Assembly: GCF_035084215.1 (NCBI RefSeq)
Contig: NC_090332.1
Span: 45,880,001-45,944,000 of the forward strand
Direction: 5' to 3'
Source of the DNA: Heptranchias perlo
Taxonomy: Eukaryota
DNA length: 64,000 bases
Positions 13,214-60,880 of this stretch are shown here, piece by piece. Positions within the stretch are counted from its first letter, which is position 1; the number at the start of each line of letters is the position of its first letter. The notes below the pieces were generated by a model, which worked only from the letters and a program-made list of their open reading frames with translations, did not search any database and was not told the origin of the DNA. The translations under genes and the position numbers were made by a program.

Positions 13214-13216
<3 letters not shown>

Positions 13217-13267: not shown

Positions 13268-13268
<1 letters not shown>

Positions 13269-35429: not shown

Positions 35430-35510
35430 CTACCTTAAGATGGAATGATAAAACAGTGGCTGGTTGTAGATTATGAATGATTTTTTTGACAAATAGGAAA
35501 ATGCTTGTTC
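35430..35510 (-). other. Candidate terminal exon of the coiled-coil gene (coding only if the upstream TGA is bypassed or spliced out)
   Basis: Strong acceptor CTTTTGTTTTGTTGTAACAG|G, in phase with the CAA|GTAAAT donor at 35605. Encodes EQAFSYLSKKSFIIYNQPLFYHSILR then TAG. Minus-strand AATAAA at 35344-35339. Confidence 0.5.
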
Positions 35511-35650
35511 CTGTTACAACAAAACAAAAGCAATATATGTTAAAGTGTTATGGATGTTCCACTTAGAATCATTTGAAAATACAGAAACTGCGAAAGACAA
35601 TTTACTTGCAATGTGTTCCGATGTACTTGCTGCATACGCTGCTGTTCAAA

Positions 35651-35755
35651 TCATCGGTGGATGTTCTGTAGTTCATCAATTGTTTTATCTTTAAGTCTTA
35701 CTAGTAGGATCTTCTCTTCAAGTTTCAATGTCAGGGATTTACAGCTTTTACATTC
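35651..35755 (-). CDS. Unknown coiled-coil gene, coding exon 6 up to the first stop (TGA)
   Basis: TTTAG acceptor; ECKSCKSLTLKLEEKILLVRLKDKTIDELQNIHR then TGA. The joined protein to this stop is 297 aa. Confidence 0.8.
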   Translation of the reverse strand, partial: ECKSCKSLTLKLEEKILLVRLKDKTIDELQNIHR

Positions 35756-36829
35756 CTAAAGAAAACCAGCAATCTGCATAATAACTTACAATTTAATGCA
35801 GTAGCAACTGTATGACTACCAAAACTTTTTTCACTGGTATGCAAAATATACAAATTACAAGCTTATAATTTTTTTTTGGTTACCAATTTTCTCTCCTCCT
35901 CCTCTCGAACGATATCGTTCGAGTGCCAGTCCCCCTCTGGCCATTGTTCATGTGTAAGCCTAAAAAGTGACTTCTGGTAGCCTATTCTGTAATTGGGACA
36001 GCACAGCTGATCCTTCTCCTGTCCTCACGTAACATCGGCTGTTTCCTGTGGGGTCACTGTATAGTGTCAGCCGTGCACTTTTTTCTCATTGTGCTATCTC
36101 TATAATTCTGTCTGACTTCTTTCATTGTTTCTGTCCCATTCTGTACTTTTCTCCAACCTTTGTCTCATATCTCTTTTGTATCTCAGCTCTCCGTGTGACT
36201 CTCACACATTCCTTCACTGATGTACTCTATATCTATCTCTTACCTTTTTTGAGGCTTAGTGTTCACAGAGAGATAGAAGACAGCATATACTGAGCTAAGA
36301 TGTGGAGATGCCGGTGATGGACTGGGGTGGACAAATGTAAGGAATCTTAAAGCTAAAGGTGAGGATAGGAAGACGCTGCTGGAAAAGTGCGATAACACGA
36401 ATGGTTCAGTGAGAAAATGGATCTAAGGCTCAGGCCAGGAGGAACTGGGGAAAAGGGTTGCAACCAAGTAGAAACAAAGGGTCAGGGTTGGAGTATGGGA
36501 GGAAGTAGGTGAAGAAGGTTACAGCTTAGAGGAGAGTGCGTGGAAGGCTGGACCCATAAGTAATGGGGTGTGGGACTACTATGGTTAGAGAACAATAGGA
36601 TTGTGGTCTGGGACGAGCGATGACTTTTGGGGTGGGTTGGCTCTGGCAGGGGACAGGGGCTGAGGCATAGCAGTACTTATAAGGTGGTGTGTGAGGCCTG
36701 GGACCATTTGGGTGGTGGGTCAGACTAGTACCTGGGTATACTGGAGAGGAGGGAAATGTATGGGAGCACTTGAGTCTGAAATCTAAGGTGGGGTGGCATG
36801 CATAGCAAAGGGTATCACAGAAAAATCTA

Positions 36830-37350
36830 GAGAGATAAATTTAAAAATATATTTGGCCCTGGTAAGACCACATCTGCATGTGGTTTTAGTCTCCCTATTT
36901 CAAAAAAGGATATTGTTATTGGAGGGGTTACAGAGAAAGTTACACAATTGATCTCAGAATTTAAGAGAATAACATGAGAAAAGGTTGACTACCCTGGGTC
37001 TTTTCTCTCTTGATAAATGAAGACAGGGTGAACATGATAGAAGTGTTTAAAATTATTAAAGATTTGAACAAATTAGATCCAAGTAAGCTTTTCTGTCACG
37101 GACAAAATTTAAGCACATGGGGTCATATTTACAAGTTAAAGACAACAAAAGAAAATAGGAAATGCAGGAGGAACTTTTTTACTAAATGGATGGTAAGTAT
37201 GTGGAACAATAAACCTTAATGGGTCTCAAAAAGGAACTAGCTCGGTTCTGGTCAACAAATGAGATTTAGGGTTATTAGAAATGCATCGATGAAATACTGT
37301 GAATTGTGGGCTAAATGGACCGACGGTCGTCTTCTGCCTAAAACTGTTAC
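36830..37350 (+). mobile_element. Old CR1 3' fragment
   Basis: LVRPHL...MIEVFKII...TWGH...RRNFFT. Confidence 0.75.
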
Positions 37351-37377
37351 TATGTTGTGTAGTCACTTGTAATGTGA

Positions 37378-38620
37378 AAAACCTACTGGAGTTTTTTGAG
37401 GATGTAACTGGTAGAATAGATAATGGAGAACCAGTGGATGTGGTTTATTTGGATTTTCAGAGGGCCTTTAATAAAGTCCCACAAGAGGTTAGTGTGCAAA
37501 ATTAAAGCACATGGGTTTGGGGGTAATATACTGGCATAGGTTGAAAATTGGTTAACAGACAGGAAACAGAGAGTAGGAATAAATGGGTCTTTTTCGGGGT
37601 GGCAGGCAGTGACTAGTGGGGTACCGCAGGGATCAGTGCTTGGGTCCCAGTTATTCACAATATATATCAATGATTTGGATGAGGGAAACAAATATAATAT
37701 TTCCAAGTTTGCTGACGACACAATACCAGGTGGGATCATGAGTTATGAGGAGGATGCAAAGAGGCTTCAAGGCGATTTAGACAAGTTGAGTGAGTGGGCA
37801 AATACATGGCAGATGCAGTATAATGTGGATAAATGTGAAGTTATCCACTTCGGAAGGAAAAACAGAAAGGCAGAGTGTTATTTAAATGGTGATAGATTGG
37901 GAAATGTTGATGTACAAAGGGGCCTGGGTGTCCTTGTACACCAGTCACTGAAAGCAAACAATCAGGTGCAGCAAGCAGTTAGGAAGGCAAATGGTATGTT
38001 GGCCTTCATTGCAAGAGGATTTGAGTACAGGAGCAAGGATGTCTTACTGCAGTTATACAGGGCCTTGGTGAGACCACACCTGGAGTATTGTGTGCAGTTT
38101 TGGTCTCCTTATCTAAGAAAGGATATACTTGCCATAGAGGGAATGCAGCGAAGGTTCACCAGACTGATGGCAGGACTGTCATAGGAGGAGAGATTGGGTC
38201 GACTCAGCCTGTATTCACTCAAGTTTAGAAGAATGAGAGGGGATCTCATTGAAACATATAAAATTCTGACAGGGCTAGACAGACTGGATGCAGGGAGGAT
38301 ATTTCCTCTGGCTGGGGGGTCCAGAACAAGAGGTCACAGTCTCATGATATGGGGTAGGACATTCAGGACTGAGATGAGGAGAAATCTCTTCACTCAGAGG
38401 GTGGTGAACCTGTGGAATTCTCTACCACAGAAGGCTGTGGAGGCCAAGTCAATGAATGCATTTAAGAAGGAGCTAGATAGATTTCTAGACACAAAAGGCA
38501 TCAAGGGGTATGGGGAGACATCGGGAATATGGTATTGAGATAGAGGATCAGCCATGATCATATTGAATGGCGGAGCAGACTCGAAGAGCCGAATGCTCCT
38601 ATTTTCTATGTTTCTATGTA
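37378..38620 (+). mobile_element. CR1 LINE RT and 3' end
   Basis: LDFQRAF, SGVPQGSVLG, FADD and VRPHLEYC motifs; TTTCTATG tail. Confidence 0.95.
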
Positions 38621-38940
38621 AGGAAACAACACTGCCAATTTGCGCGCAGCAAGGTCTCACAAAGAGCAATGAGATGATCTGTTTTTTGTGGTGTTAGTTG
38701 AGGGATAAATGTTGGCCAAGACACTGGGAGAACTCTCCTCTTCTTTGAATGGTGCCATGGGATCTTTTACATCCGCCTGAGGGCAGACAGGGCTTTGGTT
38801 TAAGGACTCATCCAAAAGATGGCAACTCCAACAGTGAAGCACCAGCCTAAATTATGTGCTCGAGTCTCTGGAATGTGGCTTGAACCCGCAACCACCTGAC
38901 TCAGGCGAGAGTGCTATCACTGAGCCAAGACTGACACTTA
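38620..38940 (-). mobile_element. DeuSINE/SacSINE1-like SINE (split by the CR1; short remnant at about 37357-37375)
   Basis: Reverse complement of 54640-54975. Confidence 0.8.
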
Positions 38941-39619
38941 TAGGTATAGAACTTCAGGAGAAATAATGGGAGTGTGGGCTAGAATTGACATGGATCACAG
39001 CCGATCACAGCAATCAAGGCATTTGCAGAAAAGAAACTGGCAACAAAATCCAATCTAATAATTAAAACTCCAGCCCCATGCTCCCAATACAGGAATAAGC
39101 CTCTTCAAGAAAACAGATTCCATGGATTTAAACACTGTACATGCAACTCTGAGTAAGAATAAGCATTTTATTCTGAATTGTTTAATTTTTGATGGGTGTT
39201 GTATTTTATAAATGCTACTTTTACCAGTTTAGTGGAAAAAGTCAATTATCGCAGCTCAAATGAACTTCACAAAATTAATTTGGTGGTTTGATTGGTTGAT
39301 TCTTGCAACTTGTCAATTTGAAATTGGTAGCCGTTGATCTAAAAAATCAATTTTCTTCTGGCCTCTTATTTGTATTTGTTCAATGAATCAAACTACTTTT
39401 GATTTGTTGATGTTTAGTCAACTGAAAATGTAACTGGTGACTTAACAGGTAAGTTCTCATTTCAGCTATTCACTAATTTATGCTTTATGGATGCATAACA
39501 TTTTTAGGTGCAATGCTTTGAAAGGCATGATGTGAAGGACACATGCTAGATGCAAGACCTTTAATTATATAGATGATCCTATCCAAACCCTTAACTGTAA
39601 CACATATAGCCAGTTATTG

Positions 39620-40250: not shown

Positions 40251-40291
40251 TCAGTAATAATATCCTGTACTTGCATATTTATGAAGTTTAC

Positions 40292-40397
40292 CTGTTTGAG
40301 AGATTTTTGCAACTTAAGTTCTCTATGAAGTGTACTGGCTTCCTCTGATAACCTCTTTACTTCCTTTTTCAGTTCATGCAACTGTTGTTGTCGTTCC
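40292..40397 (-). CDS. Unknown coiled-coil gene, coding exon 5
   Basis: AAAG|G acceptor completes the split TGG codon. ERQQQLHELKKEVKRLSEEASTLHRELKLQKSLKQ; CAG|GTAAAC donor. Confidence 0.85.
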
Positions 40398-42872
40398 CTT
40401 TTTGGATCAGGAAAACAAATGTACAGTACTTAAATTGCAATGGTAAAGGACCACGATGTAGTTAATGACGCTGCTATTCCATTTGAAACTAAGTAACTCA
40501 AAACAGAAATGGAGCTCATATAGCCAGGGAAACAGTGCGTTTATATGCTTGGTTGAATATATCCCAAATAGGTATTTTGAGTATAAATAGTGGTGTCTCC
40601 ATAAATTGTTCAACTTTTCTTGTGCAGTGTTTCCTGTATTTATGAAGTATTTTCGGTCTGTTTTTCGTATGAAGACACACAGGAATACACTAAAAAGTAT
40701 ACAAACAATGAAACATTTGTCATGCTTTTTTTTTCCATATCTTGTTATTCATTTACATAAAATAAAAATATTGGATATGATATTACAATTGTTTACTTTT
40801 TCTCTTGGCTTCCTTCTCACTCTCTGCTTTTGTTTTATTGATGCTGTTAAATTTATATTCCATTTGCATTTCTTTATATCTGTTCTCTCTCACACACTTT
40901 CCTGTCTAATTCTTTCTTCTTCATTCTGTTTTATCCTGCTCCCCAAACTTTGAGATAATAAGTATATGGCCATTAATGTGGTATTGAGATGCAATTAATA
41001 GCCCATAGACATGGGCATTCTTGGGGATTCCACGTAGTTGGAAATAATGATTGTGACACTACATTAAATTCAATCTCTTGTGGATCTCAGGAGCCAGTTT
41101 ATTTGTTATAACCAGATATGTGTTATCACACCAACATTAGTAGTGCAACTGAGTGCAGGGATAGATGTTTCATTTTACCACTCTATTGAGTTCCTAATTT
41201 CTGCTGTACAGAGAGGTCCTGAACATAGCATATCCCTGGTGAGCAGAGAAGAGAAAAATTTCATGGGAAGTTTCCACTGGATTGCTTTGATGCAGCCAGA
41301 CAAACATTTCATTGGCTACTGGTGGTAGGAAGAAGGTGCAGCAAGGCACATAACGTTAAAAAACGAGGTGAATGCCTCTTAGTACAGCATAAATATAACC
41401 TGAAATGTCAGGAGCCAAATGTGAGAAAATGTAGTATTTTGTCCATGGTGCATGTTTTGTTCCGTCTTTTCATTACCTGTACCTTCAGGGTTGAAACCAG
41501 GTTTGCTTAAAGAAATAACCAAGTCTGGGAACTACATAATTCATTATGCCACTGTATCGCTCCCAGAGACAAACTGGCTGGGGTGTGACCAGTTGGCTTT
41601 TATGTGATAATGGGTAAAATACAAAATCGTTTGAGTTGATATCACCAGAAGAACCTTCTGTTAGCTGCTTGCTTTACAGATAGTCTATTAAGAAAATAGG
41701 AATTTTACAGTCAGGTCTCAAATGAATTCAGGTCTGATACCTATTAGATGGACATTATTGACACTCCATGCAGTCGAACTGCAGATGTGCTCTTTGTCTT
41801 CAATTATGTGTATGATTGGCAGTTTTATTGTTTTGAAAGATAAATTTTTGATTTATTTTATTCTTGGTTGAACTTAGAAGGTACTAAGTATACGTCAGGA
41901 ACGTACTCCCAGTTCAGCAGTTCTTCTGAGGACATCAACAGAGAGGCAGGAGACTCTGTGCGTGAATAAGAACCTCATGTAAATTGTCAAGGAGTTCTAT
42001 CTCTGGTCCAGTATTAATAAAAGCATTAGCAAAAGGTTGTGGCTGTTTATTATTTTCTGTATTGGAGGAGGAAAGTACTTAAAGCTGATGTGTTTGCTAT
42101 TACTTATATTATTAATAAATCTGTTATGTGACTTGTAGCCTAGAAATATTTATTCTACCATCTTCTGAGGTCTTCAAAGATCGTGAGATGCCGGGACATA
42201 GCCAATAAGCTAAATACAGTGTAATGGGTGACCCCCTCTGTTTGACCCCTAAGCTCATACATGATCAGATATTAATCATATAAAGGCACACTCGCTTATA
42301 GGAGTAGTGGTCTTTTGTGCTGAAAAGAAAAAAATACCTGAGTTAAACATAATATTAAGTATCCTGACAACACAGTGTAATAATGGTGAGCGTAATAAGG
42401 AACCAGGTTCTCTATGTAATACTTTTCTAATCACTGATTTTGAGCATTGTCTGAAGAAAAATGAAACAAAAAATATCAAAATTCAGTGAATGAATGCACC
42501 ATGCTGTATGGTAGTGAGTCATACAAACTAGGAAGGGCCCTATCAGATCCTGCTCTATTTACCTGATCTCCACTGGAACAATAGTGGAGATGTGACAATT
42601 GGCTTGGTGTCTCCATGCAAGGGAAGGCAATAAATGAACTGGGGTTCCTGCTCACGTGTGTGTGTCTACATACCATGAGCAAAGGAAGCATTGGGCTCGA
42701 TAGTGATGTCTCCAACTTCATTGACCTACTGGCATTTACTGTCTAGCCTCACATATGAAGAATAGCCGCTTAAGCCAGATACCAGAGGATTGCTGATACC
42801 TGTGAAAATGCACCCCAGCGTGACTGACTAACTTCAGAAGGGGAAGGAAAAAACTTGCAGGAAAAAAAGTAC

Positions 42873-42988
42873 CAAGATTTCCCTTGTAAGATTTCTGAAA
42901 CTTGCTGCTTCAACTTGCTGATCTTCTCATCTCTGCAACTGATTTCTGATGTGCTTCCTCTTAGCAATGTGGCTAATTTTTCCTCATG
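42873..42988 (-). CDS. Unknown coiled-coil gene, coding exon 4
   Basis: Follows a 90-bp intron. TACAG acceptor; HEEKLATLLRGSTSEISCRDEKISKLKQQVSEILQGKS(W); TG|GTACTT donor, phase 2. Confidence 0.85.
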
Positions 42989-43078
42989 CTGTATTAAGCA
43001 AAACAAAAGCATAGTAAGGTTTGGAATAGGCAAAATCCTACCAAATACTTATAAAAAGCTGCTGTGAAAATTACTAAC

Positions 43079-43237
43079 CAACTTTTTGAGGTGCTCAGTT
43101 TTTTCTTCAAATTCCTTTCTACTCTCATGAAGTATCTGCAACTTTTCTGCTGCTAACATTTCCACTTGTTTTAATTTGTCTTGTGTCCATTCATGGGATT
43201 GTTGCTCGTCTTTAACCAACTGACTGTATTCTAAAAT
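43079..43237 (-). CDS. Unknown coiled-coil gene, coding exon 3
   Basis: TTTTCCACAG acceptor; 159 nt encoding ILEYSQLVKDEQQSHEWTQDKLKQVEMLAAEKLQILHESRKEFEEKTEHLKKL; TTG|GTTAGT donor. Confidence 0.85.
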
Positions 43238-46200
43238 CTGTGGAAAATATTAACAGATACTAATTTGTTTCTAAAGAATATCTCAAGTAGCCAAAAGTGT
43301 TTTACCACTGATAGACTGTGGGATACAAGTTGTATTTATTAGCTTCCGTCTTGTGAAGTATTGTTTTTTATATATATATATAAATGGCTCTCTTTGATTT
43401 TGTCCCTTTATTCTTGGTTTCCTGAGGGTAATGACTCAGAATGGGAAATGGTTCTGAGTACCTCCCCAGAGTTCTGAGTTTAGGTGAGTGTTGGCAGCTA
43501 TTTGACTGTGGGGCCATCACAGTTGTGACTGACTTATCCTCACATATTTTGTTTACCAGCAGGAAGCCCTAATCCTTTCCCCCATCTTCCCTAGCATAGG
43601 ATACTAAAGCCTGTTGTGGTACCCTACTACAAACCACAGAGCTGTGATTTATTAAAGCTGCACTGACCAAGAATTGAAACTGCAATTTTTCTGGGTCTAT
43701 ATGAATTAGTACTTTATTGCACAGTACATTCACCCACTTAAACCATTGGGGAAACCTTCCTGATGTTGCTTTTGTTTATTCAATAAACATAACTACAAAG
43801 CAGTTAGAGAGGCAGCTTCTTAAAATCAGTTTTCTTATTTAACACAGAAAAAGTCTATCTACAGCTTCCCTCTGTGCCTCGCTTGGCATCCTCCGAACGG
43901 CCCATCAATGCACTAGTCGCTGCCTCCTTACGAGCCGCAATCCCAACTGCCTATCCTATTCTCTCACCAACTTTCCTGCCCAGCGCGCCTGCTGGGAGCT
44001 AACCTTGCCCATTACTTCCCATCTGCTGACCCTGTGGACTCTGCCAGCAGATCAGCTATCACTGCCTCTCACCGCATCTCCCTCCAGAATGTCCGTTCAT
44101 TTGTGAACAAGGCCCATATGCCATCCACGGGCTTACTGTGGATGACTGCATCAACATCATGGTCTCGACAGAAAATTGACTGACGGGTGATGACACCTTC
44201 CCTCTTAATGAAGCCTCCCTGCCTGGCTATATCTTCCACCACTTGCCCCACCCAGACCGCCATGGTGGCGATGTGGCCCTCATCACCAAATCACACCTTG
44301 GTCTGTCCCCCTACTTCTCTGGCACCGTCCCCTCCTTTGAGCATCTCAACTTGTTCCACCCCTCTTACCTCCTTTAAAATCCTCGTTCTCTATTGCCCAC
44401 CCGAGTACCATGCCAAGTTTCTCTCAGATATCTTCACTACTTTCCTCCTTCAGCCTCTGCACAGAGCAACTTCTTATCCTCAGTGATTTCAACTCCCATC
44501 TCAACTCATCAAGCCCTCTCTCCTCTGAGTGCACTGCCCTCCTATCCTCCCTTAATCTCTCCCTTCATATAAATTACCCATATTCACAGTCACACCCTCG
44601 ACCTTGCCATCTCATGTGGCCTCTCTACTCCCATTGTATCAATCACCGATAAGGTCATCTCTGATCAATTCCTTGTATCCCTCTCCACTCACATCCTCCT
44701 TTCCCCTCCCAACCCCACTTCTTTCTGTGTTCACCCCTAGAAAAAAAACTATTCTCCAAGTCACTTACAGCGGCACTCGGAAATTCCTAATTGTCTAGCC
44801 TAGGCCCTCCATTCACCACGACATTTCTGCAGCTACCGATCTGCTCATTCACACCCTCAACTCTACCTTTGATGCCCTTGTCCCCATTAAAACCATTACT
44901 CTCTCTCACCCTGGTATGGCCCTCATCTCCGCTCCCTTAAGTCCAAGGGACGCAGACTTGAACTTTTATGGCGAACAACTGGTTTAGCCATTCATCGCCA
45001 GGTCTGGCTGGACCACATAAAGCACTATCGGGTCCTACTCTCCTCTGCCAAAACTGCTCACTATTCCAGGATCATCCTGGAATGCAAAGATAACCCCCAG
45101 CTTCTCTTCTCCAAACTGTCTTCTGAAATCCCTCTCCCCCAACAAATGCGAGGAGCTCATGGACTAGTTTGTCACTAAGATTGAGACCATCCGTTCAGCT
45201 GCCTCTGCCGTTTCCCTCCCTTCCCCTAGCCCACCAAACCAAACTTTCCCTACAGGTCCTCCCTGCCCTAGCTCTGAACTTGCATCCTTCTCTAGTTTCT
45301 CTCCTATCTCCCCTCATGCCCGCTCCAAGCTCATCTTGACCATGAGACCTACCTCCTGCTCCCTCGACCCTATTCCCACCAAACTGCTGACCATCCAACT
45401 TCCCTTCCTGGCCCCCATGTTAGCCGATATTGTTAACATTTTCCTCTCCTCATGTACTGTCCTCCTTGCCTTCAAATCTGCTGTCATCACCCCCCTCCTC
45501 AAAAAACTTACTTTTGACCCCTCTGCCCCTGAAAACTAGCACCCCATCTCCAACCTCCTTTTCCTCTCCAAAGTCATTGAACGTGTTGTCGTCTCCCAAA
45601 TCCATGCCCATCTTTCCTGCAGCTCCATGTTTGAATCCCTCCGATCAGGTTTCCGTCCCTGCTACAGTACTGAAGCGGCCCTTATCAAAGTCGCAAAAGA
45701 CATCCTATGTGACTGTGACCGATGTAAACTATCCCTCTCCATCTTTCTCGACCTGTCTGCAGCCTTTGACATGGTTGAGCACACTACCGTTGTTCAGCTG
45801 GGTGGGACTGCGCTAACCTGGTTCCAATTCTTATCTATCCAGTCGTGGCCAGGGAATCATCTGCAATGGATTCTCTTCCCACTTCCGCACTGTTACCTCT
45901 GGACTCCCCCAAGAATCTATCCTTGGCCCCCTCCTATTTCTCATCTACATGCAGTCCCTCAGCAACATCATCTAAAAATATAATGGGGGTTAAATTCAAC
46001 CGGGCATGGGGGTCGCAGTGTGCGATTAACCCGCCCCGGTCGTTGAGATGCAGGCAGCACATGAGATCCGTGTCGCCTGCGGAGTTCCACAATTTCTGCG
46101 TGCAGCCAGCGCTACTTGCGCTGTTGAGTGGCTGCTGCACCAGCAGGGGGCTCGACATGGGACATGGCCAACACTACTTAAAAGCAGCCTGCACCTCTTA

Positions 46201-46247
46201 AATGGGAGGTGCACTGTCAATGCAATCGGTGGAGGAAGGCAACTGGA

Positions 46248-48103
46248 ATGGCTGGACCTGTAAAAGAGTGTGCACCGAGGTTCTTCGATGACACACCGGA
46301 GGCCTTGGTGGAGGAGGTGTACGCACGGAGAACCTTCCGTACCCGCAGGGTGGCAGGAGACCCTCCTGACACCAGCTGCGGAGGTAGTGGGAGGAAATGG
46401 CCCTGGAGGTGAATGCCAGGAGCACTGCATCATGCTCATGGATAAAGTGCAGGAAAAAGTTCAATGGTTTGACACGAGTGGTCAAGGTGAGTGACTGCAA
46501 GTGTCAAGTGGCACATTGTACCAACTGCACCACTGCTCCATGCACAACACCCCCCACAGTCACCCACCCATGCTTTCCATCTGTACGCAACACTGCACTT
46601 TCGATGCTGCATCTCACCCTCACATAGTACCACTCTTGCAATCCACACACCCACAACTCATGGGTCACACACACTAGCAGCTATTCGACCTTGACCGGCA
46701 CAATCGCCCAAACATCTTGCAGGACACCCACTGACACACTTCCCTCTGTCTTGCAGGAGAAGGTGGCGCGTAACAGCCGGCAGCAGGAAAGAATGGACAG
46801 AGGACAGGCACGTCTACACGTCCTCACCCGCATGGAGGAGACTGTGGTGGGGGTCATAGGGCGGGCCGTCGCAGGGGCTGTGGTCACTGGAGGCACCGAA
46901 GAGGAGGGTCTCTGCATACCTAATCCTCCTTTTTGTTTCCCACATCTCCCTCATCCCACAATATTTTCTGACTCGCATGCTGCAGATGGTGTCAGTGCAC
47001 ACGTCTTACTTGCTCCTCTCCCCGCTCCACAATTTGATCCGTCTCCCTTTGTCATTGCAGATACCCAAGAACTGAAGCCAGCACCGTCCGAGCTGGAGGA
47101 GCAAGACACTGACACACCGTCACTTGATCTGACACTTGCCTCCACTGACACTGCACGTCTTTTAGGGGCTAGGTCAGCGGAGGGATCTGCACGTGGTGAG
47201 ACACCGGGTACAAATGCGCAGGAGCCGGGGCAGGGGGAATGGATATTGCAGGTGCCAGTTGCGGGAGGGCGAGGTTGCACAATAGTTCTGCTGCCGAGGA
47301 GTCAGGTGATGACTTTGATGGGCCAGATTACAGAAGGCAGAGGATGGGCAATCACACCCAAATGCTTGGTGCACTGGAAAGCCTGCCAGAAAGCCTGCGC
47401 ACAAAGTCAGGGGGCATGGAGGAGGCCAACTCCAACTTGGCACAGGGCTTTGCGCAGAGCTTGGAGCCCACATGGAACGGGTGGTCACCTCCATCAGCAC
47501 ATCTGTGGAACCCACCATGATGCAGCGTCTGATGACCAATATCTCAGCTTCCTTTGCAGTACAAATAGATGTCGTCAAAGGTCTGCACGCTTCATTTGGA
47601 GCTCAGACTGCTGCTTTGGAAGCTCAGTCTGCTGCGTTACAGGCACAGACTGCTGCTATCATGGCTCTACATACCACAGTGGAACGGGGCCTGCCAGGGC
47701 ATCACAGCAGACCAGCAATCTGTTCTCCAGCAGATCACCAGGATTGCTGCGGCATGCCCTGTGCGAGTGGCAGTGGTGCCATGGCAGTCGAACCTGCTGT
47801 CCTTTCAGGAAGACAGCATTCCTGCTCCCACCCTTGCCACTCCGCCAGTACTCTTGCTGTTGCTGTCAACCTGCCAGGCCAGACTGCTGTAGCCTATGCC
47901 AAGATGGTGCAGTCTGAAGCTGGGCCCTCCTGCTCCAGAACTGCTTGAGGTCGTCCTCCATGGCCATCTGCACACTCCTCAGTTGAAGGTCAGCAGCCTT
48001 CCACCAACCGTGCTTTAGCCACTGGGTATGCATCTCGTAGGAGCATCAGGAAAAGGAAAAGCACACGAACAACAGACACTAAGGGAATGCACAAGGGTGA
48101 ATA
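46248..48103 (+). pseudogene. Harbinger Myb/SANT-like DNA-binding protein gene, spliced and decayed
   Basis: APRFFDD..EALVEEV...VNARS...SWIKCRKKFNGLTRVVK|GTGAGT, then acceptor TTGCAG|GAGAAGGTG. Confidence 0.75.
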
Positions 48104-48299
48104 GTGTAATGTTGAATACATGATTTCATGTGTAAGTTTATAAATTTGTATTTGAAGTCGCAGTTGGTGGTGGTTTTTATTTACGCGATGAGCTGCGGGA
48201 AGAAGTAACGTGTAATCATAAGGAGGACAATTTGATGGTCATGTGGGAAAGGAAAGGTGAGGAGTGTGGGACTGTTGATGACTTGGGAGGTGTCATTAA

Positions 48300-49354
48300 G
48301 GTTACTGATATTGCTCATGAATAAGGTGAGCACACAGAGCCCTGGCAGACAGGGTCTGTGCACTTTGTTGCCTCCTTGCCTTTTCCTCCACTTCCTCCTC
48401 TGTCTCCTCCTCCTCCCCTTCTTCTGCCTCTGGCTCAGGGTCTTGCCAGATAGGCGGTGCAAGGGTTGTCCTCTCATTAGGGCGAGGTTGGGCAGCATGC
48501 AACGATGAACCTTGACACCTGCTCAGCGGAGTACTACAGGGCTCCTCCAGAACAGTCCAGGCAGTGGAAGCATTGCTTTAGCTGGTCTATGGTGTGCTCG
48601 ATCACGTTCTGTGTGGCCGCTTGGCTCTCATTGTAGAACTGCTCTGCACGTATGCGTGCGTTCCTGACCGGAGTCATGAGCCATTTCATGAGAGGATAAT
48701 CCCTTGTCGGCCAGTAGCCAGCCTTTGACTTGCCGTGCTGATTGAAAGATGGACTGCTGCATAATGAAGGCGTCAATACTGCTGCCAGGATAGCAGGTAT
48801 TGACCTGCATGATGCACTGCGTGTGGTTGCGCACCAGTTGCACGTTGAGGGAGTGGAACCCCTTTCTGTTCATAAAGATGGCTGAGTTGAGATGTGGAGC
48901 ACGCATGGCTATAAGCGTGCAGTCAATGGCACCCTGCACCATAGGGAAGCCTGCAATGCGAGCAAACCCTCGTGCTCGCTCATTCTGCTTCTCTTGGTCA
49001 AGCGGGAACGTTATGAATCTGATGCGCAGCTCGTACAATGCCTCAGTGACCTCCCTTAGGCAGCAGCTGAGATGCTATCCTTGCCCTGCTCTGAGGCTGC
49101 AGTTGTGGCTGCAGCAGTTGACATATCTCCATCACAACTTCTTTTGTGAACTGCAGCCGTCGGATGTACTGATCTTTGCTCAGGCTGAGGTAAAAGAATT
49201 GGTCCCTGAAGGCCCTCATTGGATATAACCTCCTGCTCAGTGCCCTGCGCCTCCTCCTCCTCCCTCTCCTCGCAGCCTGACGTGCTCTGCGTGGCCCCTC
49301 TGCATGCTCCCAGTCATGTTCAATGCCCAGCGGGAGCCCTAGCAGGCCACTCAT
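48300..49354 (-). pseudogene. HARBI1-like DDE transposase, frameshifted
   Basis: GFPMVQGAIDCT, NRKGFHSLNVQ, YPGSSIDA, WLLADKG and NVIE.TI..LK motifs, followed by an acidic tail. Confidence 0.9.
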
Positions 49355-50529
49355 GGTTGCCAGAAATATTGTTCAGCACACTGTTGTAAATGCCATCAAC
49401 AGTAATGCAGGACCTGCCACACCACTCTCTATATACTATTGCAACTTTCTCCAAGTATAGGCAGCTTCAACAAACACATACAAATGCATCAGCAGCCAGA
49501 AGCAATAATCCAGCAACTAACCTGTATGATCACTTTAAATAATGCTGGTGGGGAGTCCTCCAGGCCATCTAATACCTGTTCAGCTGTGCGTGGTTAAGAC
49601 AGTGCGTTGAATTCCAAAATCATATCTGTCCCTTTCAATCAGAATTGCACACTGATCTAATGCATATTCTCCTTGCTTTACATGCTGCCGGTGCTCGTTA
49701 TTTGCGTGTGCACAAACGCCTTTACGAAGATGGCATCCGGCGCACATCACGCTAGAAGCGTGCACGCGCATTCTGAATGCCATTTTGGGTCCTTAGGAGG
49801 CCGTGCAGCGCCTACAAAACAGGCGTGTTCAATATGAACACTGACAACACCCAGCTCTGCCTCACCACCACCTCCCTCGACCCCTCCACTGTCTCTTATT
49901 TGTCACACTGCTTGTCTGACATCCAGTACTGGATGAGCAAAAATTTCCTCCAACTAAATACTGGGAAGACCGAAGCCATTATCTTCGGTCCCCGCTACAA
50001 ACTCTGTTCCCTGGCCACCGACTCCATCCCTCTCTCTGGCAACTGTTTGAGGCTGAACCAGACCGTTCGCAACCTTGGCGTCCTATTTGACCAAAATGAT
50101 CTTCCAACCACGTATCCGCTCCATCACCAAGACCACTTACTTCCACTTCCATAACAACTCTTTACCTCCTTTTAATATTTCCTTCCTCTAATAATCTTCA
50201 GGATTTTAAAACCGAAGCTTGGTTTCACCTAATCACTGCATCCAGATTCACCACATCATCTTTTTTAATCTTTCCAATCTTGGTTGTATCCTGCACAATG
50301 TTGTTGCATTGCCCCCAAACTTTGGTTTCTCACTAATAGAGAAAAACAAGCAAAAGAGTGATGGTTTGATTAGCAAAAGCAATTAGACAGGACCCAGTGC
50401 TTGGACAGCAAAAGCATCTATATCAGAAGCTAGGCTTTGAAGCAACCGTACTTGGACCACAACCAAAGCTCACATAGCACCAACTATGACCAGGACCCAG
50501 GAATTTAAAAAACAGGAAATGGGCTCAGA

Positions 50530-50999: not shown

Positions 51000-53920
51000 A
51001 CTTAGCTGATCAATCTAGAACATTCTTCAGACCCCATCATAAAATCTGTTTCTTCAATTACTAAGCTTTTGCCTCCACTACCCAGCCTATAAGTCTATTT
51101 CAAGTGTTAATTGTTTTATCTGGAGAACAATTTCCTGACATCAGCCTAAATTTGCCTTTCACCAGTTTGAACTTGTCAAATGTGCTATGGTCAAGATTTA
51201 CCTCAAATTAGAGCTCTGGATATCCTTTTCTATATTGTTTAATATCTAATATACGCTCTATTAGGTCCCAAGTTAACTCCTTTCAAGGCCAAAGAGCCCA
51301 ACTTTTGCCAGTCTTCATAGTACAATCTTTTGACTCAATGAATTATCTTTGTGGTTCTGCTCTGCACCATTTTCCCTGTGTCTTGGTGACCAAAACTTGA
51401 CATAGCATGCAAGGTGCAAGTCTGACCAAAGCACTATACAGTTTCAGTATGACATCCTCCAACTTATACTCTACTGATTTAGCACATAATACAGTATTCT
51501 ATTATCTTTGTTGATTGCTGCATCAGTGACTAGTCCTATTAAGTGCCATGTCTACTAACACTCATAGGTCTCTTTCAATTTCTTCCTTAACTAGTTCAAT
51601 ATGTTGCCCATTTTTCTTCCATTGTGCTTGTCTGTGTTGAACTTCATCTGCCACTGTTCTGCCCATTTACAGATTTTACCTAGCTCCTTTTGTAGGTCCT
51701 TGGCTACCTCATCAGATTCACTTGCATTCCCCCTCAGTTTAGTGTCATGTGCAAATTTGACCACCCTGCAATGTCACTGCTGTAAATTAGAAACAGTGGG
51801 GGCTCAACAATGTTCCTTGATGCACTCCACTTTGTACTTCCCATCTTTTTTTGAAATAAAGTATATTTTGAAATTTTAAAAGGTACACACAGTTCAAAGT
51901 AAATATCACAATTCTAAACCAGTACATTTCAAACCAAGAACATTACAGATCGTACACAAAGCGATCTCATTATTACAATTCAAACACAGTATTTCTTTTG
52001 ACTTATGGTGTACAATACAAGGTGGGGTGGCCTTACATCAGTTATGTAACAAGTACACTCTACTTTCTATTCTTCACCATTTTTTAAAATCCCTATTCAA
52101 TTCCCACTCCTTTAAGCTTATGTAGCAGTCTATTATGAGGATTTTTTCAAAGGCTTTCTGGAAGTTTAGGTACACCATGTTATAAAATATTCTAAAGCAC
52201 ATTTAAACTAGCATTTCCTCAAAGCAAAGAAGGATTTGGGCCAATGGTCTGATTACCTGCGCAGCACAATGACAAAGACCAGGATTCTGATAACAAAAGC
52301 AACACAAAGTCCAGAACTCTGACAGCATCATTTGCATATGACTGTGACCCTGACAGCTCTGGCTGCAGCACCATCAACATTAGGTTGAGAGCAGTTTCCA
52401 ATAGCAGTGCCAGGGTCAAGCAGGGATTGAGAAGCATAAGATAGTTTGACAGGACAAGCTGAGTTAGGTAGGCTACTTGTAGAATGGGGCAAACGAAGGC
52501 AGTGTTCAGTGTAAAAGTCGAAGAGCTGGGCACGTCCCTTTATTCAGTAACAGAAATCTGTTTTATTTTTGTCGGCAAGGATGGATATACCCAGACTGAG
52601 TTATAAGCAATGTATCACTTCTAGTTTGCACTCAGGGTGGGAATGTAATGAGCAAATGGAGTTGTGATTAGTTCACAATGTGATGGTATGCAACAATAAT
52701 TCCAATTTTTCAACCTCACATTTTTGACTGTGGCCCTTCATGAAGGGTGGCAAGTGATAAATATATGTATATTCTCATTCTGAACAGTAAGATAAGAGTG
52801 CTCTTTTAAAATAAAACTAAGCTAAGTATTGATGAACATTGTTGATTGACATACATTACCTTATCTTGCATTAGTTTAGTGACATTGGTTATGGTTCTAT
52901 CCTTTTCCTTTAGCTGCGTTTTCAGCTGTGCAGTTTCTTTCTCCAGCATACTTATTCTTTCCATCAGTTGTTTTCGATCATATAAGGACATCTGCAGATA
53001 TGCATGTTATAAAAGTTGTAATAAAATGTACTGAACACATCATTTATACGCAATAGATTTTTCAAATTATCAGGATATTTGAATGAATGATTCTCTGCAA
53101 CACATGAACGTGTGTAAGGTTTACCAGTCTGCAGTCCAAGATAACAATCGTGACTAAAATCATGTTGATGTTTAACTACATAACAATAGTTGCTGCATTT
53201 CATAAAAATGATTGCACCAACGCAGACCATTCAGTCCATCATGCCTCTACCCTTTCCCCATATCCTTTTGTATTCTTTCTTTTCAAATACTTATCCAGTT
53301 CCCTTTAAATTATGCTATAGTGTGTGCCTCAACAGCCACGTAGTCAAGCATTCCATGTTCCACTAAATCTGTTTGAAAAAATATCTTCCAACTTCCCCTT
53401 TTCTCTTAGTGATAATACTGAATCTTTGCCCTTGCTATTGATTCATCACTAGTAGAAACAATCTTTCACTACCTTTTCAAAACATTTCATAACTTTGAAA
53501 ACTTCTATTAGATCCTCCTTAACTTATTCTATTTCAGTGTAAAATCCACAATTTCTCAAATCTTTCTTTATAAATATAACTGCTCATTCTTGATATCATT
53601 CTAGTGAATCTTCACTGTACCCATCCAAGGTTTTACGTAAAAGTGCCCACAACTGTACGCAATACTCCACCTTCAGCCTCACCCGTGTGTTGTACAAATT
53701 CAATATTATTGTAATATTACAGCAATATTACAATGCTGCTATGCATAAAAGCCAGAATTCCATTTATGTTTTTATAGTCTTTTCTACCTTCTCGTTCACT
53801 GTTAAAGATCTATGATTCAGCTCCCCAAGATCTCTCCATTCCTCCACTCTGTTACGTCTTACCATTAGAACATACTTCAGTTTCACTGTTATTTTTCCCA
53901 AAACATACTACTGCATACTC
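51000..53920 (-). mobile_element. Several decayed CR1 fragments (about 51000-51830, 52070-52185 and 53210-53920) flanking a host exon
   Basis: Reverse-strand similarity to the CR1 RT C-terminus and tail. Confidence 0.55.
52860..52991 (-). CDS. Unknown coiled-coil gene, coding exon 2
   Basis: TGCAG acceptor; 132 nt encoding MSLYDRKQLMERISMLEKETAQLKTQLKEKDRTITNVTKLMQDK; AAG|GTAATG donor. Confidence 0.85.
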
Positions 53921-55362: not shown

Positions 55363-55638
55363 TTTAATTGAGGTATCTTTGGCAGAAAGATCATGTTTTT
55401 CTCCACCAAAGTGAATTTTCTTTGATAGTCCCAACTTCTGTACTTTAACAGCATCAAAATGTATGGTCAATGATTTTGCTTCTGGTATGGACATGGCAAT
55501 ACCAGTTATACCAGTAAAAACTGGAGGTTCTTTAGTCGGTGTATCAGGTCCTGAGGCTGCACTGTTGTGTTTCAGGTTACCAGTTGGTCGCATTGCTTCT
55601 ACTTTCACCCTGGACACTTTAGATTTGATGTCAGACAT
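55363..55638 (-). CDS. Unknown coiled-coil gene, first coding exon
   Basis: Acceptor CTAG|G at 55697/55696 and ATG at 55638. MSDIKSKVSRVKVE...KDTSIK (92 aa), then AAA|GTAAGA donor, phase 0. Confidence 0.65.
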
Positions 55639-56239
55639 TTGTCCACTAACAGCCCAGATGATATGAAGCAGCAATGTCTTTTTTTTTTGTTTATTCCTAG
55701 TTTGCAAGAGAATCAGGACAATGGTCAATAAAAATAAGCACCATAATGGTCAAGTTTTAAGTAGACATTTCTTGCTTAACTAGTTATAAAGTTTTGTTCT
55801 GTATTTAACATATTGATTGCTTTGATTAGACAATACACACACTTGTTGCAAAATGGACGATTGGGGTGACTAGTGCTTCAGTAATTAAGTTTTGTCCTTT
55901 CATCCAGAAGGGCATGTTTTACCAATTTTCAGTTCCGGTGTGGTAGCTAAGCAGTTCGCCATGGGAACACGCAGAAGTTAAAATTAGTCGGATAAGTCCT
56001 GCTCTGCAAAGCTATACCACTTGTCTGCTGCCCACTGAGCTGACATGCTTGTCTACCCGCTTAAAGGAGGTAGTACGCTAGCCAAGCCTCAAAGTGGGAA
56101 AAAAGAGTTAAACAAATAAATAAATGTTATTTTCTTTGTAAGAAAGCTTTTGATATTATTTGCATCACTGAGAATTAACGAACTTAAAGAAACACCCCCG
56201 TGCCCAAATTTGCTGAGCTCCTTCCATGATGATATGTCA

Positions 56240-56680: not shown

Positions 56681-56699
56681 GTACCAAGGGTTTATAAAC

Positions 56700-58730
56700 A
56701 TATGGAAAAGAGGACTAGGAAACACCATGTAGCCTGTTCCATTCAGACATGGTGTTGCCAATGTGCACCAATCAAGCCGCAGTCATACAAACTCCCAGGA
56801 GAGGTGAAAACATTCTGTTAAATTTCCCTCTGACCCCTGAAAGCAATCAAGCAAGCTCCAGGAGACTATCATAACTGCCAACGCTAATCATTGCTAGCCC
56901 CATCTACCTTCTATGATTCAAGATTTATTCTACTCATAGGAACTCGTCTGGCTTCCTTTTGAAGACCTGTAGCAAATCCATACTCACCGCAAGTTCTGGC
57001 AATCTGTTCCAGAAGTCAATGATTCTCTGTGAATAGAAGTACTGCCTAGTGTTGAACCTAACTCTTTGTTTTCTTCTTTTGTCCTGATGCCCCTTAGTCC
57101 TTCTTTATCCGGCTCAAATATCCTATCCATCCAAACAGGACCTATTCCTTTCATAATTTTGAAGATCTCAATTATATCCCCATAAGTCTATGTTTCTCTA
57201 GTGAAACAGGTCACAGATCCCTGGGCCTGAACTGACAACTAAGTGTCCTAAGGCTCAGTATCAATCTGGTGGCCCGCCTCTGGATTTTTGCCAGGGCCTC
57301 GATATCCCTCAACATACGTGGGGACAGAACTGGGCACAGTTCCCAAGATGGGGGCCATACCAGTGTCTTATAAAGGGCAGGTATTGTATTTCTGGTTATA
57401 TATTTCACCGTTTTGGCTATACGTCCTAATACCCTATTTGTCTTCTCTACAGCCTCATGACACTGGTCATGGACCGTCAGAGTTTTATAACCAGTCCCGT
57501 GTCTGTTCCACAGTCTCTAGAACCCAGCATGGCATGTGCCTGAAATTATCATGATTATTCAAATGCATCACTCTACATTTACAACAACAATCTGCAATTA
57601 TATAGCTCCTTTAATGTAGAAAAAATGTCCCAAGGCACTTCACAGACGCATAAGGAAAAAATGAATGCTGAACCAAAGAAGGAGATATTAGGAGGGGTAA
57701 CCAAAAGCTTGCTCAAAGATATGGGTCAGGAGGGTCTTGGAGGAGGACAGGGAGGTGAAAAGATGGAGGGGTTCAGGGGGAATTCCATTGCCTGAGGCCT
57801 AGGCAACTAAAGGCACAGCCACCAATGGCAAAGGGATGCACAGGGAAAATGTAGTCTCTTTGAACAAGAGGCATTAGGGAACTGGGAGCCAATATAGGTC
57901 AGTGAGGACAGGGGTGATGGGTGAGTGGATTTTGGTGCTGGATAGGCAACAGAGTTTTGGATGAGCTGATGTTTAGCATGAAGCTGAAGGATAGTAGGCT
58001 GGCCAGAGAGTATTGAAATAGTCAAGTCTGGAGCTGACAAAGGCATGAATGAGGATTTCAGCAGCAGATGGGCTGAGGCAGGGGTGGGGCAGGCAATGTT
58101 ATAGAGGTGTAAGTAGGCGGTCACAGTTATCGACATTGTAGGACCTATGCTTCAATCACCCAATGTATCTAAATCAGCCTGCAATCTATTTACTTTGTAC
58201 AAAGTCGTAACTCCAACATACACATTTGTGTCATTGGCAAATTGAAGGATTGGACTGCCAATGCCATCATCCAAATCATTGATAAAGATGGTGAACAGCA
58301 ATGGTCTTAACATGGATATCTGGCAGGGCTCCACTAGTAACCAACCCCATGCAAAGCTGCTACCATTAAGAAGTACCCTCTGCCTACGTGAATAAAGCCA
58401 ATTTGCAATCCAGCGTAAAATTTGACCACGGAACTCAAAACTTACTTAACAACCTTTTGTACAACACTTTTTTGAAGGTTTTTTGGAAATCCAAATAACA
58501 ATGTCTACCCAGTCTACAATTGTAGACCAAGTTTGTGATTTCTTCAAAAACTCAACTAAGTTAGTGAGAGATGGCCTCTGCTTCCAAAAACCATGTTGAA
58601 AATCCCAAATAACTACTGCTCTTTCCAAACGCTCATACAGCACTCCTCGGGTAATTCCTTCAAGCAACTTTCCAATAACTGACGTCAAACTCACTGCCCT
58701 ATGTGGTCTTTGATCTCTCACTGACTCCTA
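56700..58730 (-). mobile_element. Decayed CR1 (56700-57580, 58140-58730) with a nested L2 3' fragment (57583-58135)
   Basis: CR1 motifs VSLTSVIGKLLE, LFTIFINDLD...FANDT and LYKTLV. The L2 piece carries the TATATAGCTCCTTT tail. Confidence 0.8.
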
Positions 58731-59544
58731 ACATAACTAAAAAAGTTTTGCTATTACTGCCACATCTATCAATGAATGTAGATGGAACCAACACATCTAA
58801 TATTTATGGTGAAAGATTATGCTCATGATGACATTTTCTGAGAAATCCAGTCATTTCACTTTGATCAATTCTTCTGAGTCAGGTAAAGTTGACTGTGAAA
58901 CTCACACTTTGACATTGCCCATGACAATAACAGAGTCTACTGCAAGAGTTTTAGCTATATTATCCTCAAGATCACTATGAAACTGTTTCTTTGTCATACC
59001 GTGATTGGTCATAATTAGTGCACAGACACCGATAATAACAAATAGCTTACTTTGTAACAGCATCCCATTTTCATGAGGTACTCATTTATACATTTTGGCA
59101 CACTCTCAACCTTTGCAAAAGTTTGTTATAGGTTGAAAAATCCATATTGATGATGCAAAGTTCCTTGGTAACCACCAAGCCAGAGGAATAAGCATCCAGT
59201 TCCAACTTGTATCAGATGTACATCATCAATCAACCTGACTTCAATCATTTCAGCAATGTTCACACTATATCAATTGATTTGTGTGTTAATCAGTACCATC
59301 TTTTACTCAGAGCTAGAGTCTTCTTAATGATCCTAAAGTGTTTTGATGTTCAATGATGCAACAGTTAGGTGCTGTTTCTAAATCCAACATCAAGTGGCCA
59401 GCTACATGATGGATTATCTTTGCGCATAGCCACAACTCTCAGTACCCACTGCGTCACTAGGCTGTATTTCCCAGTATATTTAATCAGGGTGTTAATGTGT
59501 CAAATGTGTTAATTTCTTTTTTATTTCTTAATATACCTGTATAG

Positions 59545-59826
59545 GTGTCAGCCTTAGCTCAGTGATAGCACTTTCACCTCTGGGTCAGAAGGTTTTGGGT
59601 TCATGCCTCACTCCAGAGACTTGAGCACATAATCTAGACTAACATTTGAGTGCAGTGCTGAAGGAGTGCTTCACTGTAGGTAGTGTCATCCTTCAGATGA
59701 GACATTTGCTACATTTCCTTACAATTACAACAGTGACTACATTTTAAAATACTTCTGTTGGCTGTAAAGTACTTTAGGATGCCCTGAGGTTGTGAAAGGC
59801 GCTATATAAATACAAGTTCTTTCTTT
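59545..59826 (+). mobile_element. Internally deleted DeuSINE/SacSINE1-like SINE
   Basis: Head and tail match 54640-55075; the middle is missing. Confidence 0.8.
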
Positions 59827-60676
59827 ATGTGCACCATAAAGGATACCTGATATGCACCAAAATATGGCTGACTTCAATTCAATTTTTTGTCTCACTGACC
59901 AGTGTTAAGTTGCATATGTGTTTTGCTATGCAACTACAAATTCGAACTACAAGTTTATCTAAATTATATTCTTCACACAATTAACTTGACTACAGTAAAA
60001 AGTTCAAATCTCTTCAGAGATAGAAAAATATGTTCTTCCATTTTCTTCATCCAAACAATAAATAGTCATAGATAATGCCCCGCTGCTACTTTTTCACCAA
60101 ACTAATCTAGTTTTCAGCATAAATGCAACACCAAATGAGAGTGTGGACCCACGCAATATGAATGAAGTTGAGGCAACAATAATATTATTGGCACAAGTCC
60201 ATTCCTTGCGTCCCTCACCACGCCCCATAGACGGATGCGCGCGCCCTCGCGCGGAGGCAAATCTCGTGCACAGTGCTCTCCACTCACATCGGAAACTTGT
60301 TTCGGACAAAATGTGAAGCAGATAGTGTAAAAATCCAGGTGAGAACGAAGCAGCGTGGCTTTAATGTCATAACGATGTTAGATTATTCTTACAGTATGAC
60401 AACTAAAAGTTATAAGAATCTGAATATATAAGAAAGAAAAAACGAAAGTTGGAAATTAGAAATAAACAGAAAATTCTGGAAATGCACAATGTTTGAAAGG
60501 GGGTTTAACATTCGCAGTGACTATTGACAACGATACGGCACTAAACGCATCCTTTAACACTTCGGTAGAGACCCGCCCTCAAACTGAGTTAAAAGTTCCG
60601 TTGAAGGGTCTCTCAAAGCGTTTTACTTGAGCAGGTGTATATTTTGAGAACTTTCTACAAATTTGTTTTATTTTAC

Positions 60677-60880
60677 CTGGAAGGTAGACTTTTCCCCCCT
60701 TAAATAGAACTACTAATTGGAGTTTCTTTGTGCTCCCGGCCCATTCCCGCACTGAGCTCCTCTGGCAGACTCACAACGGTGCGGTTGCCTAGTTACGTGG
60801 ACGCCGGCCTTGCTGCACTGCGGCGCCGGCCCGCAGAGCGCGCGAGGGAGGGAAACTAAATACTGCGACACGAAAACTGC
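60677..60880 (-). other. Putative non-coding first exon of the coiled-coil gene
   Basis: CCAG|GTAAAA donor at 60676 at the edge of the CpG-rich promoter. TSS unknown. Confidence 0.55.

What the first reader, a model, noticed from the sequence alone, without database searches (positions are those of the whole stretch)
35430..60880. Unrecognised multi-exon coiled-coil gene between PEX13 and the next plus-strand gene
Seen: six minus-strand exons with canonical GT-AG sites and matching phases (0,0,0,2,0, including a Trp codon split across an intron) join into 297 aa. A 92-aa non-helical N-terminus is followed by long E/K/Q/L heptad segments and a CKSC motif between two coiled-coil runs. It has a candidate 5' exon at a CpG promoter and a polyA signal. 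I do not recognise the protein, and I know of no such gene between human PEX13 and SANBR. Inference: an ancient gene lost in some lineages. A CxxC within a coiled coil is reminiscent of a zinc hook or clasp.
Basis: partly seen in the sequence, partly recalled or inferred. Interest (0 to 1): 0.7.

Follow-up and report, generated by a model that had tools for sequence, protein, structure and literature searches.

The report
Unnamed ancient zinc-hinge coiled-coil gene
This shark has a real, spliced but unnamed gene, with relatives from corals to lizards, whose protein is predicted to pair into a long rod with a likely zinc hinge and probably serves cilia, and it has probably escaped study because humans appear to lack it.

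Summary
The six exons join into 297 aa, identical to an uncharacterised RefSeq model (XP_067845164.1). An RNA-type contig shows three of the five coding joints plus a 5' exon; a seventh, non-coding exon exists. The intron that splits the Trp codon was not seen spliced.

The gene is single-copy and lies head to head with SANBR, tail to tail with PEX13. It belongs to an undescribed family with no consistent Pfam match: 94 profile hits, named members from coral, acoel, flatworm, rotifer, annelids, molluscs, echinoderms, hemichordates, a tunicate, cartilaginous and basal bony fishes, amphibians and a lizard. Its marks are K-x10-SWERQxQLxEL and a CxxC about 38 residues later.

Models give a parallel in-register homodimer whose helix breaks at the CxxC, like the CtIP zinc hinge, not the Rad50 hook; homology to CtIP was not found. 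The shark copy ends at a stop inside the ancestral frame and lacks an LC8-like motif kept in bony vertebrates.

A role at cilia or basal bodies is the best guess (about 45%), on indirect evidence only. Loss in mammals and ecdysozoans is suggested, not shown: 68 of the 94 hits carry no species name here.

The parts
60677..60768 (-). 5' non-coding exon (5' end at least 60768); holds a 14-codon upstream ORF
   Evidence: X1 contig joint; donor context and uORF
60769..61069 (.). CpG-rich two-way promoter shared with SANBR; four CCAAT boxes, one E2F-like, three MYB-like sites
   Evidence: CpG o/e 1.14 in 60001-61000; motif counts against 1000 shuffles; consensus motifs recalled
60784..60796 (.). RFX X-box-like site, one mismatch, just upstream of the contig's 5' end; weak
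   Evidence: 19% of shuffles reach it (3% with a stricter, after-the-fact pattern); 20 such sites in the window
55363..55696 (-). Exon 1; coding from ATG at 55638; residues 1-92, disordered, with the conserved RPxG and G[IV]xGxAMx[VI]P motifs
52860..52991 (-). Exon 2, residues 93-136, start of the coiled coil
43079..43237 (-). Exon 3, residues 137-189, coiled coil
42873..42988 (-). Exon 4, residues 190-228; first half of the family motif (K216, S227); weak donor TG|GTACTT
   Evidence: acceptor seen spliced, donor seen read through
40292..40397 (-). Exon 5, residues 228-263; ERQQQLHEL and E247
   Evidence: donor use inferred from bin depths; acceptor not seen used in X1
35606..35755 (-). Exon 6; CKSC (265-268), second helix, TGA ending at 35651; the ancestral frame continues past the stop
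   Evidence: (lungfish protein matches through the TGA)
35100..35510 (-). Exon 7, now 3' untranslated; AATAAA at 35344; runs on below 35100, end not fixed
   Evidence: contigs of X1 and X2 start at 35510
9060..29693 (+). PEX13 coding exons seen (9.1-9.9, 26.1-26.2, 29.3-29.7 kb), the tail-to-tail neighbour
   Evidence: PF04088 E 3.8e-48, SH3 pieces
61070..61252 (+). Probable first exon of SANBR (KIAA1841), the head-to-head neighbour
   Evidence: contigs in X1, X4, X5; BTB_SANBR PF11822 E 1.9e-27 in L003, 21 kb further on; the link between the two is inferred

Best explanation
This is a transcribed, single-copy member of an undescribed animal-wide family whose protein is predicted to form a parallel two-chain coiled-coil rod, likely kinked by one zinc ion shared between the two CxxC motifs, and it likely works as a scaffold or adaptor at cilia or basal bodies. 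How it would work: the disordered first 90 residues dock through short conserved motifs (inferred); residues 95-223 form a spacer rod (predicted); the near-invariant polar patch K216...SWERQxQLxEL...E247 sits at a heptad irregularity and would bind a partner (inferred); C265 and C268 of both chains would hold zinc and let the last helix swing, as in CtIP (analogy). In this shark the last arm is about 25 residues shorter than in most relatives. Rough odds per step: real gene 0.99, family 0.98, parallel dimer 0.85, zinc hinge 0.65, cilium or centriole role 0.45.
For: Gene and family. Conservation: S227 70 of 70, K216 and Q233 69 of 70, E247 68 of 70, C265 67 of 69, C268 68 of 69 in a hand-picked set of mostly full-length rows. 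Unpicked count: of 94 hits, 69 reach far enough and the script found CxxC in 59; four of the ten misses are parsing errors by eye, so 63 of 69. Fold: helix 90-260, break, helix 266-296; the same in the lungfish orthologue. Dimer: score 0.44, best of 3 controls 0.00; runs agree in at least 60% of contacts, partner pLDDT at least 70; contacts are in register (151-151, 158-158) and include 265, 267, 268. That mark was reached by 21 of 30 solved pairs and 0 of 23 single chains in microbes, and in eukaryotes by 17 of 29 pairs (animals 7 of 16; 1 of 7 without an older solved relative) and 0 of 30 single chains. Precedent: CtIP shares one zinc between C89/C92 of two parallel chains and is kinked there (PMC8205527). 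Cilia, all indirect: the promoter partner KIAA1841 is one of 11 multiciliation candidates, in a cluster of MCIDAS/E2F4 and Foxj1/Foxn4 targets (PMC8470418); multiciliated cells are absent from Ecdysozoa and a lost-in-Ecdysozoa module is tied to microtubules and centrosomes (PMC8470418, PMC5850483), and no named hit is an ecdysozoan; 7 of 10 Atlas rows are proteins I recall as centriolar or ciliary; X-box-like and E2F-like sites at the promoter.
Against: No localisation, tissue or binding data exist here. Zinc was not scored, and a long coiled coil may pass from likeness to solved coils. Atlas neighbours disagree on family and share only 107-146 of 256 features; coiled coils drift to centrosomal names anyway. 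The X-box and E2F matches are not significant (19% and 14% of shuffles). Ecdysozoa lost many non-ciliary genes too (PMC5850483). Mammals and most teleosts have motile cilia yet gave no named hit. No homologue appears among solved structures, which include axonemal doublets. The head-to-head link is shown in this genome only. The joint that completes the motif was not seen spliced. The lizard orthologue, one stingray model and at least one long unnamed member lack the CxxC.
Confidence: 0.45

Rival explanations
1. The rod is a general cytoskeletal or trafficking adaptor, dimerised with help from LC8 in bony vertebrates, with no special tie to cilia.
For: An LC8-like [SAG][TVI]Q[TVAN] motif occurs in the first 150 residues of 16 of 19 bony-vertebrate orthologues against 1.4 expected, mostly just before the coil (pattern written after seeing the sequences; motif rules from PMC6607443). 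All three Macrostomum copies are classed 'Non-Specific' by body region (PMC7336406 supplement). Four CCAAT boxes (0.2% of shuffles) fit a broadly active promoter.
Against: The motif is missing at that place in the 8 cartilaginous-fish rows and is at chance level in invertebrates (3 of 48, 2.75 expected). The Macrostomum label may be a default, since the other columns are empty. Patchy loss is unusual for a housekeeping adaptor (inference).
Confidence: 0.22
2. It is a germ-line or chromosome scaffold that bridges partners as the CtIP N-terminus does, in meiosis or DNA repair.
For: Same predicted architecture as the CtIP coiled coil. Three MYB-like and one E2F-like site at the promoter (5% and 14% of shuffles). 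Two-way promoters are common for repair genes (recalled).
Against: No CtIP_N match among the 13 families listed for 12 members; profile against the shark's own CtIP exon gives probability 3.2% over 20 columns; the genome has CtIP_N loci elsewhere. No nuclease or DNA-binding domain. The Macrostomum copies carry no testis, ovary or germ-line label.
Confidence: 0.18
3. The family is real, but the shark copy is decaying: most transcripts keep intron 4 and would give a 261-aa product without the motif's second half or the CxxC.
For: Intron 4 was read through in X1, with weak splice sites. The stop cuts the ancestral frame. Other sharks and rays keep only 1-15 residues after the CxxC or lose it, against mostly 49-60 in other animals. 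Skate records also end at this intron.
Against: Identity to catshark is 69 of 92, 81 of 112 and 47 of 56 by segment, including exon 5; the branch is short (0.077). The stop is 45 nt above the last joint, inside the usual escape range for nonsense-mediated decay (rule recalled). Contigs drop rare forms, and one sample of unknown tissue was seen.
Confidence: 0.15

Closest known systems
CtIP/RBBP8 N-terminal coiled coil (PF10482; PDB 7BGF)
   Same: Parallel two-chain coiled coil interrupted by a CxxC, one zinc per two chains, acting as a hinge (PMC8205527, passages); here the dimer and the break are predicted.
   Different: No detectable homology. The CxxC lies near the C-terminus after a 170-residue rod; the SWERQ motif is this family's own; no Sae2-type C-terminal domain.
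Rad50 zinc hook (features recalled)
   Same: CxxC between two coiled-coil runs, zinc shared between two molecules.
   Different: Rad50 folds back as an antiparallel hairpin with an ABC ATPase head. Here the model has no hairpin, the dimer is parallel and in register, and there is no ATPase domain.
Centriolar and ciliary coiled-coil proteins (CCDC77, LRRCC1, CEP162, SDCCAG8, SCLT1, ODF2, ninein, CEP128)
   Same: Nearest by language-model features, score 0.92-0.94; long E/K/Q/L rods.
   Different: The hits disagree with each other, share few features and give no alignment; no Pfam family is hit by more than 6 of 54 members.
LC8 (DYNLL1) clients
   Same: TQT-like motif in a disordered stretch next to a coiled coil, in bony-vertebrate orthologues.
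   Different: The shark protein has KDTSIK there, without the anchor glutamine; invertebrates show no enrichment.
RefSeq XP_067845164.1, 'uncharacterized protein PF3D7_1120000-like'
   Same: Identical sequence.
   Different: The name is automatic; orthologues carry unrelated automatic names (myosin-7-like, golgin-like, CEP83-like, KIF3A-like), so the family is not recognised as one.

Membership tests
CtIP/RBBP8 N-terminal domain | Sequence homology to CtIP_N (PF10482) | tested here: not met
   Not among the 13 families listed for 12 members; hhalign probability 3.2% against the shark CtIP exon. Searches show only their first 25 families.
CtIP/RBBP8 N-terminal domain | Parallel dimeric coiled coil | tested here: met
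   Predicted only: score 0.44, best control 0.00, in-register contacts.
CtIP/RBBP8 N-terminal domain | CxxC that interrupts the helix between two coiled-coil segments | tested here: met
   AlphaFold: H90-260, H266-296; lungfish H105-271, H275-316.
CtIP/RBBP8 N-terminal domain | One zinc bound per two chains | not testable with these tools
   Zinc rode along but was not scored.
Rad50 zinc hook | Intramolecular antiparallel coiled coil with the CxxC at the hairpin tip | tested here: not met
   Dimer contacts are parallel and in register on both sides of the CxxC; feature recalled.
Rad50 zinc hook | Split ABC ATPase head at the chain ends | tested here: not met
   No such Pfam match; N-terminus disordered.
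LC8 client | TQT-type anchor with invariant Gln in a disordered region | tested here: not met
   Not in the shark protein; present by pattern in 16 of 19 bony-vertebrate orthologues. Binding untested.
Named centriolar or ciliary coiled-coil families | Family-level profile match shared by the members | tested here: not met
   Best shared family ATG16, 6 of 54 members; Lebercilin 3 of 54; generic coil matches.
Named centriolar or ciliary coiled-coil families | Shared fold with a solved member | tested here: inconclusive
   Foldseek none; VIA-align best Z 8.9, rmsd 7.7, 209 aligned, tied with lamins and tropomyosin.
Named centriolar or ciliary coiled-coil families | Localisation at centriole, basal body or axoneme | not testable with these tools
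   No data found in the paper searches.

The most novel reading that the evidence does not exclude
An eumetazoan-age basal-body or ciliary component with its own zinc hinge, kept for over 600 million years from corals to amphibians, eroded in sharks, rays and lizards and lost in mammals, flies and worms, so that it marks a ciliary substructure that human, mouse, fly and nematode genetics cannot see.
Probability: 0.3. Interest if true: 0.75.

Novelty: new member of a known kind. Interest (0 to 1): 0.52.

Why it matters
The family has a sharp signature, one copy per genome in most named animals and no name, Pfam model or paper that my searches found. It is present in tractable animals (frogs, newt, flatworm, tunicate, coral), so function can be tested directly. 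If the zinc hinge is real it is a second family, unrelated to CtIP, that uses this device. If the cilia link is real it names a part that mammals dropped. The stepwise loss of the C-terminal arm in sharks, rays and lizards gives a natural deletion series.

Tried and rejected
Known-gene match: no consistent Pfam family for exons, members or C-terminal fragments; solved-structure sequence hits are generic coils; fold searches gave nothing specific. CtIP homology rejected. Rad50 hook rejected on geometry.

Selenocysteine at the TGA rejected: it aligns with Arg or Lys, not with the family's third Cys, which aligns with H296. A minor-spliceosome intron 4 was considered and dropped, as the donor does not fit the recalled consensus.

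No listed run is on record as RNA. X5 and X2 showed no coding-exon contig at 99% likeness; this says nothing on expression. Whether the stop is shared by organism B or by the X1 reads could not be read, because 224 difference rows were hidden.

dN/dS was not computed: no orthologous coding DNA was available. Synteny outside this genome was not testable. A scan of metagenome contigs gave no result.

Paper searches with no hit: PEX13 + KIAA1841 + synteny; twelve orthologue identifiers; supplements of PMC5730564, PMC5816591 and PMC12960093. The catshark organ atlas supplement (PMC11979771) and a Capitella single-cell paper could not be read; they and closed bioRxiv supplements may hold tissue data. 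The tree is the quick version; fragments under 190 aa, isoform duplicates and rows whose motif the script did not parse (P0051 among them) were left out. Earlier findings of the scan: none in 4 look-ups.
Full report
Observation. Exon 1 alone found 3 proteins among 143 candidates, one identical over its full length: RefSeq XP_067845164.1, labelled Heptranchias perlo, uncharacterised. Exon 1 DNA and a lungfish orthologue each match only this locus in the genome. The neighbours are PEX13 (PF04088, E 3.8e-48) and SANBR (PF11822, E 1.9e-27).

Transcript. Five runs were listed, all Logan contigs only guessed to be RNA; four were laid in each of two calls. One 890-nt X1 contig joins a 5' exon (60768-60677) to exons 1, 2, 3 and 4 at GT-AG joints, with one other letter; X4 repeats the 2-3 joint. 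SANBR's probable first exon begins about 300 bases away on the other strand. Contigs of X1 and X2 start exactly at 35510, a seventh exon; bin depths fit a donor at 35606 and a 5-6 joint (arithmetic, not a listed joint). Against the model: in X1 one contig runs through the exon 4 donor and another through the exon 5 acceptor, so intron 4 was not seen removed. Its splice sites are weak, and reading through would end the protein 33 residues later. High depth below 35510 may partly come from a long PEX13 3' end, since contigs carry no strand and plus-strand AATAAA sites lie at 35224 and 35347.

Family. The full protein found 13 relatives among 1668 candidates: sharks, rays and skates at 62-76% and gar at 38-44%. 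A six-sequence profile over 1.84 billion representatives gave 94 hits, 65 at E below 1e-10. A 54-sequence profile gave 28 among 7994 scored. Named members include Pocillopora, Convolutriloba, Macrostomum, Rotaria, Capitella, Owenia, Tubulanus, many molluscs, Acanthaster, Asterias, Saccoglossus, Glandiceps, Styela, Acipenser, Lepisosteus, Albula, Latimeria, Protopterus, Pleurodeles, two frogs and Sceloporus. Only 26 of the 94 were named. None is a mammal, bird, arthropod or nematode, and Albula is the only named teleost. Two unnamed lizard-like proteins (P0051, P0062) could stand for other amniotes. The quick tree of 89 rows groups cartilaginous fishes, tetrapods, hemichordates and rotifers at 95 or more; the lizard and Albula branches are long.

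Signature. In 70 hand-picked rows the fixed positions are K216, S227, E229, R230, Q231, Q233, E236, L237, E247, C265 and C268; a third Cys (41 of 64) is His in this shark. Unpicked, 63 of 69 long-enough hits have the CxxC (59 by script, 4 more by eye); 18 end too early and 7 were not parsed. The disordered N-terminus keeps two short motifs (R17/G20 in 41 and 43 of about 59 rows; G46 in 59 of 68). Bony vertebrates add an LC8-like motif before the coil (16 of 19, 1.4 expected, pattern written afterwards) that sharks lack at that place. No Pfam family covers the group and no solved homologue was found.

The shark C-terminus. Gar, coelacanth, newt and most invertebrates have 49-60 residues after the CxxC; this shark has 29, catsharks and bamboo shark 11, sawfish 15, a skate 1. 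The window frame continues past the TGA as FEQQRMQQ, matching gar FEKQLTQQ, and the lungfish protein aligns through the stop. The stop stands where relatives have Arg or Lys, so a CGA-to-TGA change is likely (inference). It lies 45 nt above the last joint. Exons 1-5 remain 72-84% identical to catshark, so the gene looks maintained while its tail erodes.

Structure. AlphaFold gives disorder to residue 89, one helix 90-260, a break, and a helix 266-296 that starts at the CxxC (mean pLDDT 81); the lungfish model agrees. Two copies of residues 95-297 score 0.44 against 0.00 for the best of three controls, parallel and in register, with 265, 267 and 268 at the interface and 224-232 unnamed (calibration counts are given under the best explanation; the alignment was not used and zinc was not scored). 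This is the arrangement described for CtIP, where C89 and C92 of two chains share one zinc and kink the coil (PMC8205527; I saw the abstract and 12 passages). Homology to CtIP was tested and not found. Fold searches are uninformative for a long helix.

Function. Nothing here shows it directly. For cilia: the promoter partner KIAA1841 is among 11 multiciliation candidates and in a cluster of MCIDAS/E2F4 and Foxj1/Foxn4 targets (PMC8470418; passages and tables); the named range avoids Ecdysozoa, which lack multiciliated cells and lost a centrosome-linked gene set, though they lost many other genes too (PMC5850483; passages); Atlas neighbours are mostly centriolar but inconsistent; X-box-like and E2F-like sites are present but not significant. 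Against a gonad-only role, weakly: the three Macrostomum copies are 'Non-Specific' (PMC7336406; passages and supplement rows). LC8 motif rules are from PMC6607443 (passages). I put cilia or basal body at 0.45, general adaptor at 0.22, germ-line or chromosome scaffold at 0.18, and a decaying shark copy at 0.15.

Novelty. The gene model is already in RefSeq, and coiled-coil adaptors with a shared CxxC are a known kind. The family as a family appears undescribed: no paper held any of twelve orthologue identifiers or the neighbour terms (full texts only, most supplements unseen), and the scan's own notes held nothing. Verdict: real, ancient, unnamed; new member of a known kind; interest 0.52.

Noticed in passing
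window 18278-20962 (+): Open frame of 894 aa with endonuclease and reverse-transcriptase domains, a well-preserved LINE inside a PEX13 intron.
   Followed up: partly
window 46000-49400: GC-rich insert in intron 2 with a DDE_Tnp_4 (Harbinger-type) transposase piece on the minus strand at 48631-49074, nested among LINE fragments.
   Followed up: partly
window 37540-38540 and 45540-45980: LINE reverse-transcriptase fragments in introns 5 and 2; they dominate the contig depth.
   Followed up: partly
window 35100-35510: Contig depth here (22-95) exceeds that of the coding exons (about 10); the PEX13 3' end may overlap this gene's last exon tail to tail.
   Followed up: no
window 55460: One T>C difference (plus strand) in the X1 contig within exon 1, possibly an allele.
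   Followed up: no
G000:C22:14519352-14522493 and G000:C3:87466387-87473129 (L012-L015): Two CtIP_N loci in this genome, presumably RBBP8 and its paralogue.
   Followed up: no
window 42777-42872: A catshark isoform (P0014) extends exon 4 by 32 residues into this intron; the matching stretch here is similar but reads on to a stop.
   Followed up: partly
P0033 (unnamed, frog-like): The CxxC helix segment is tandemly duplicated in this model.
   Followed up: no
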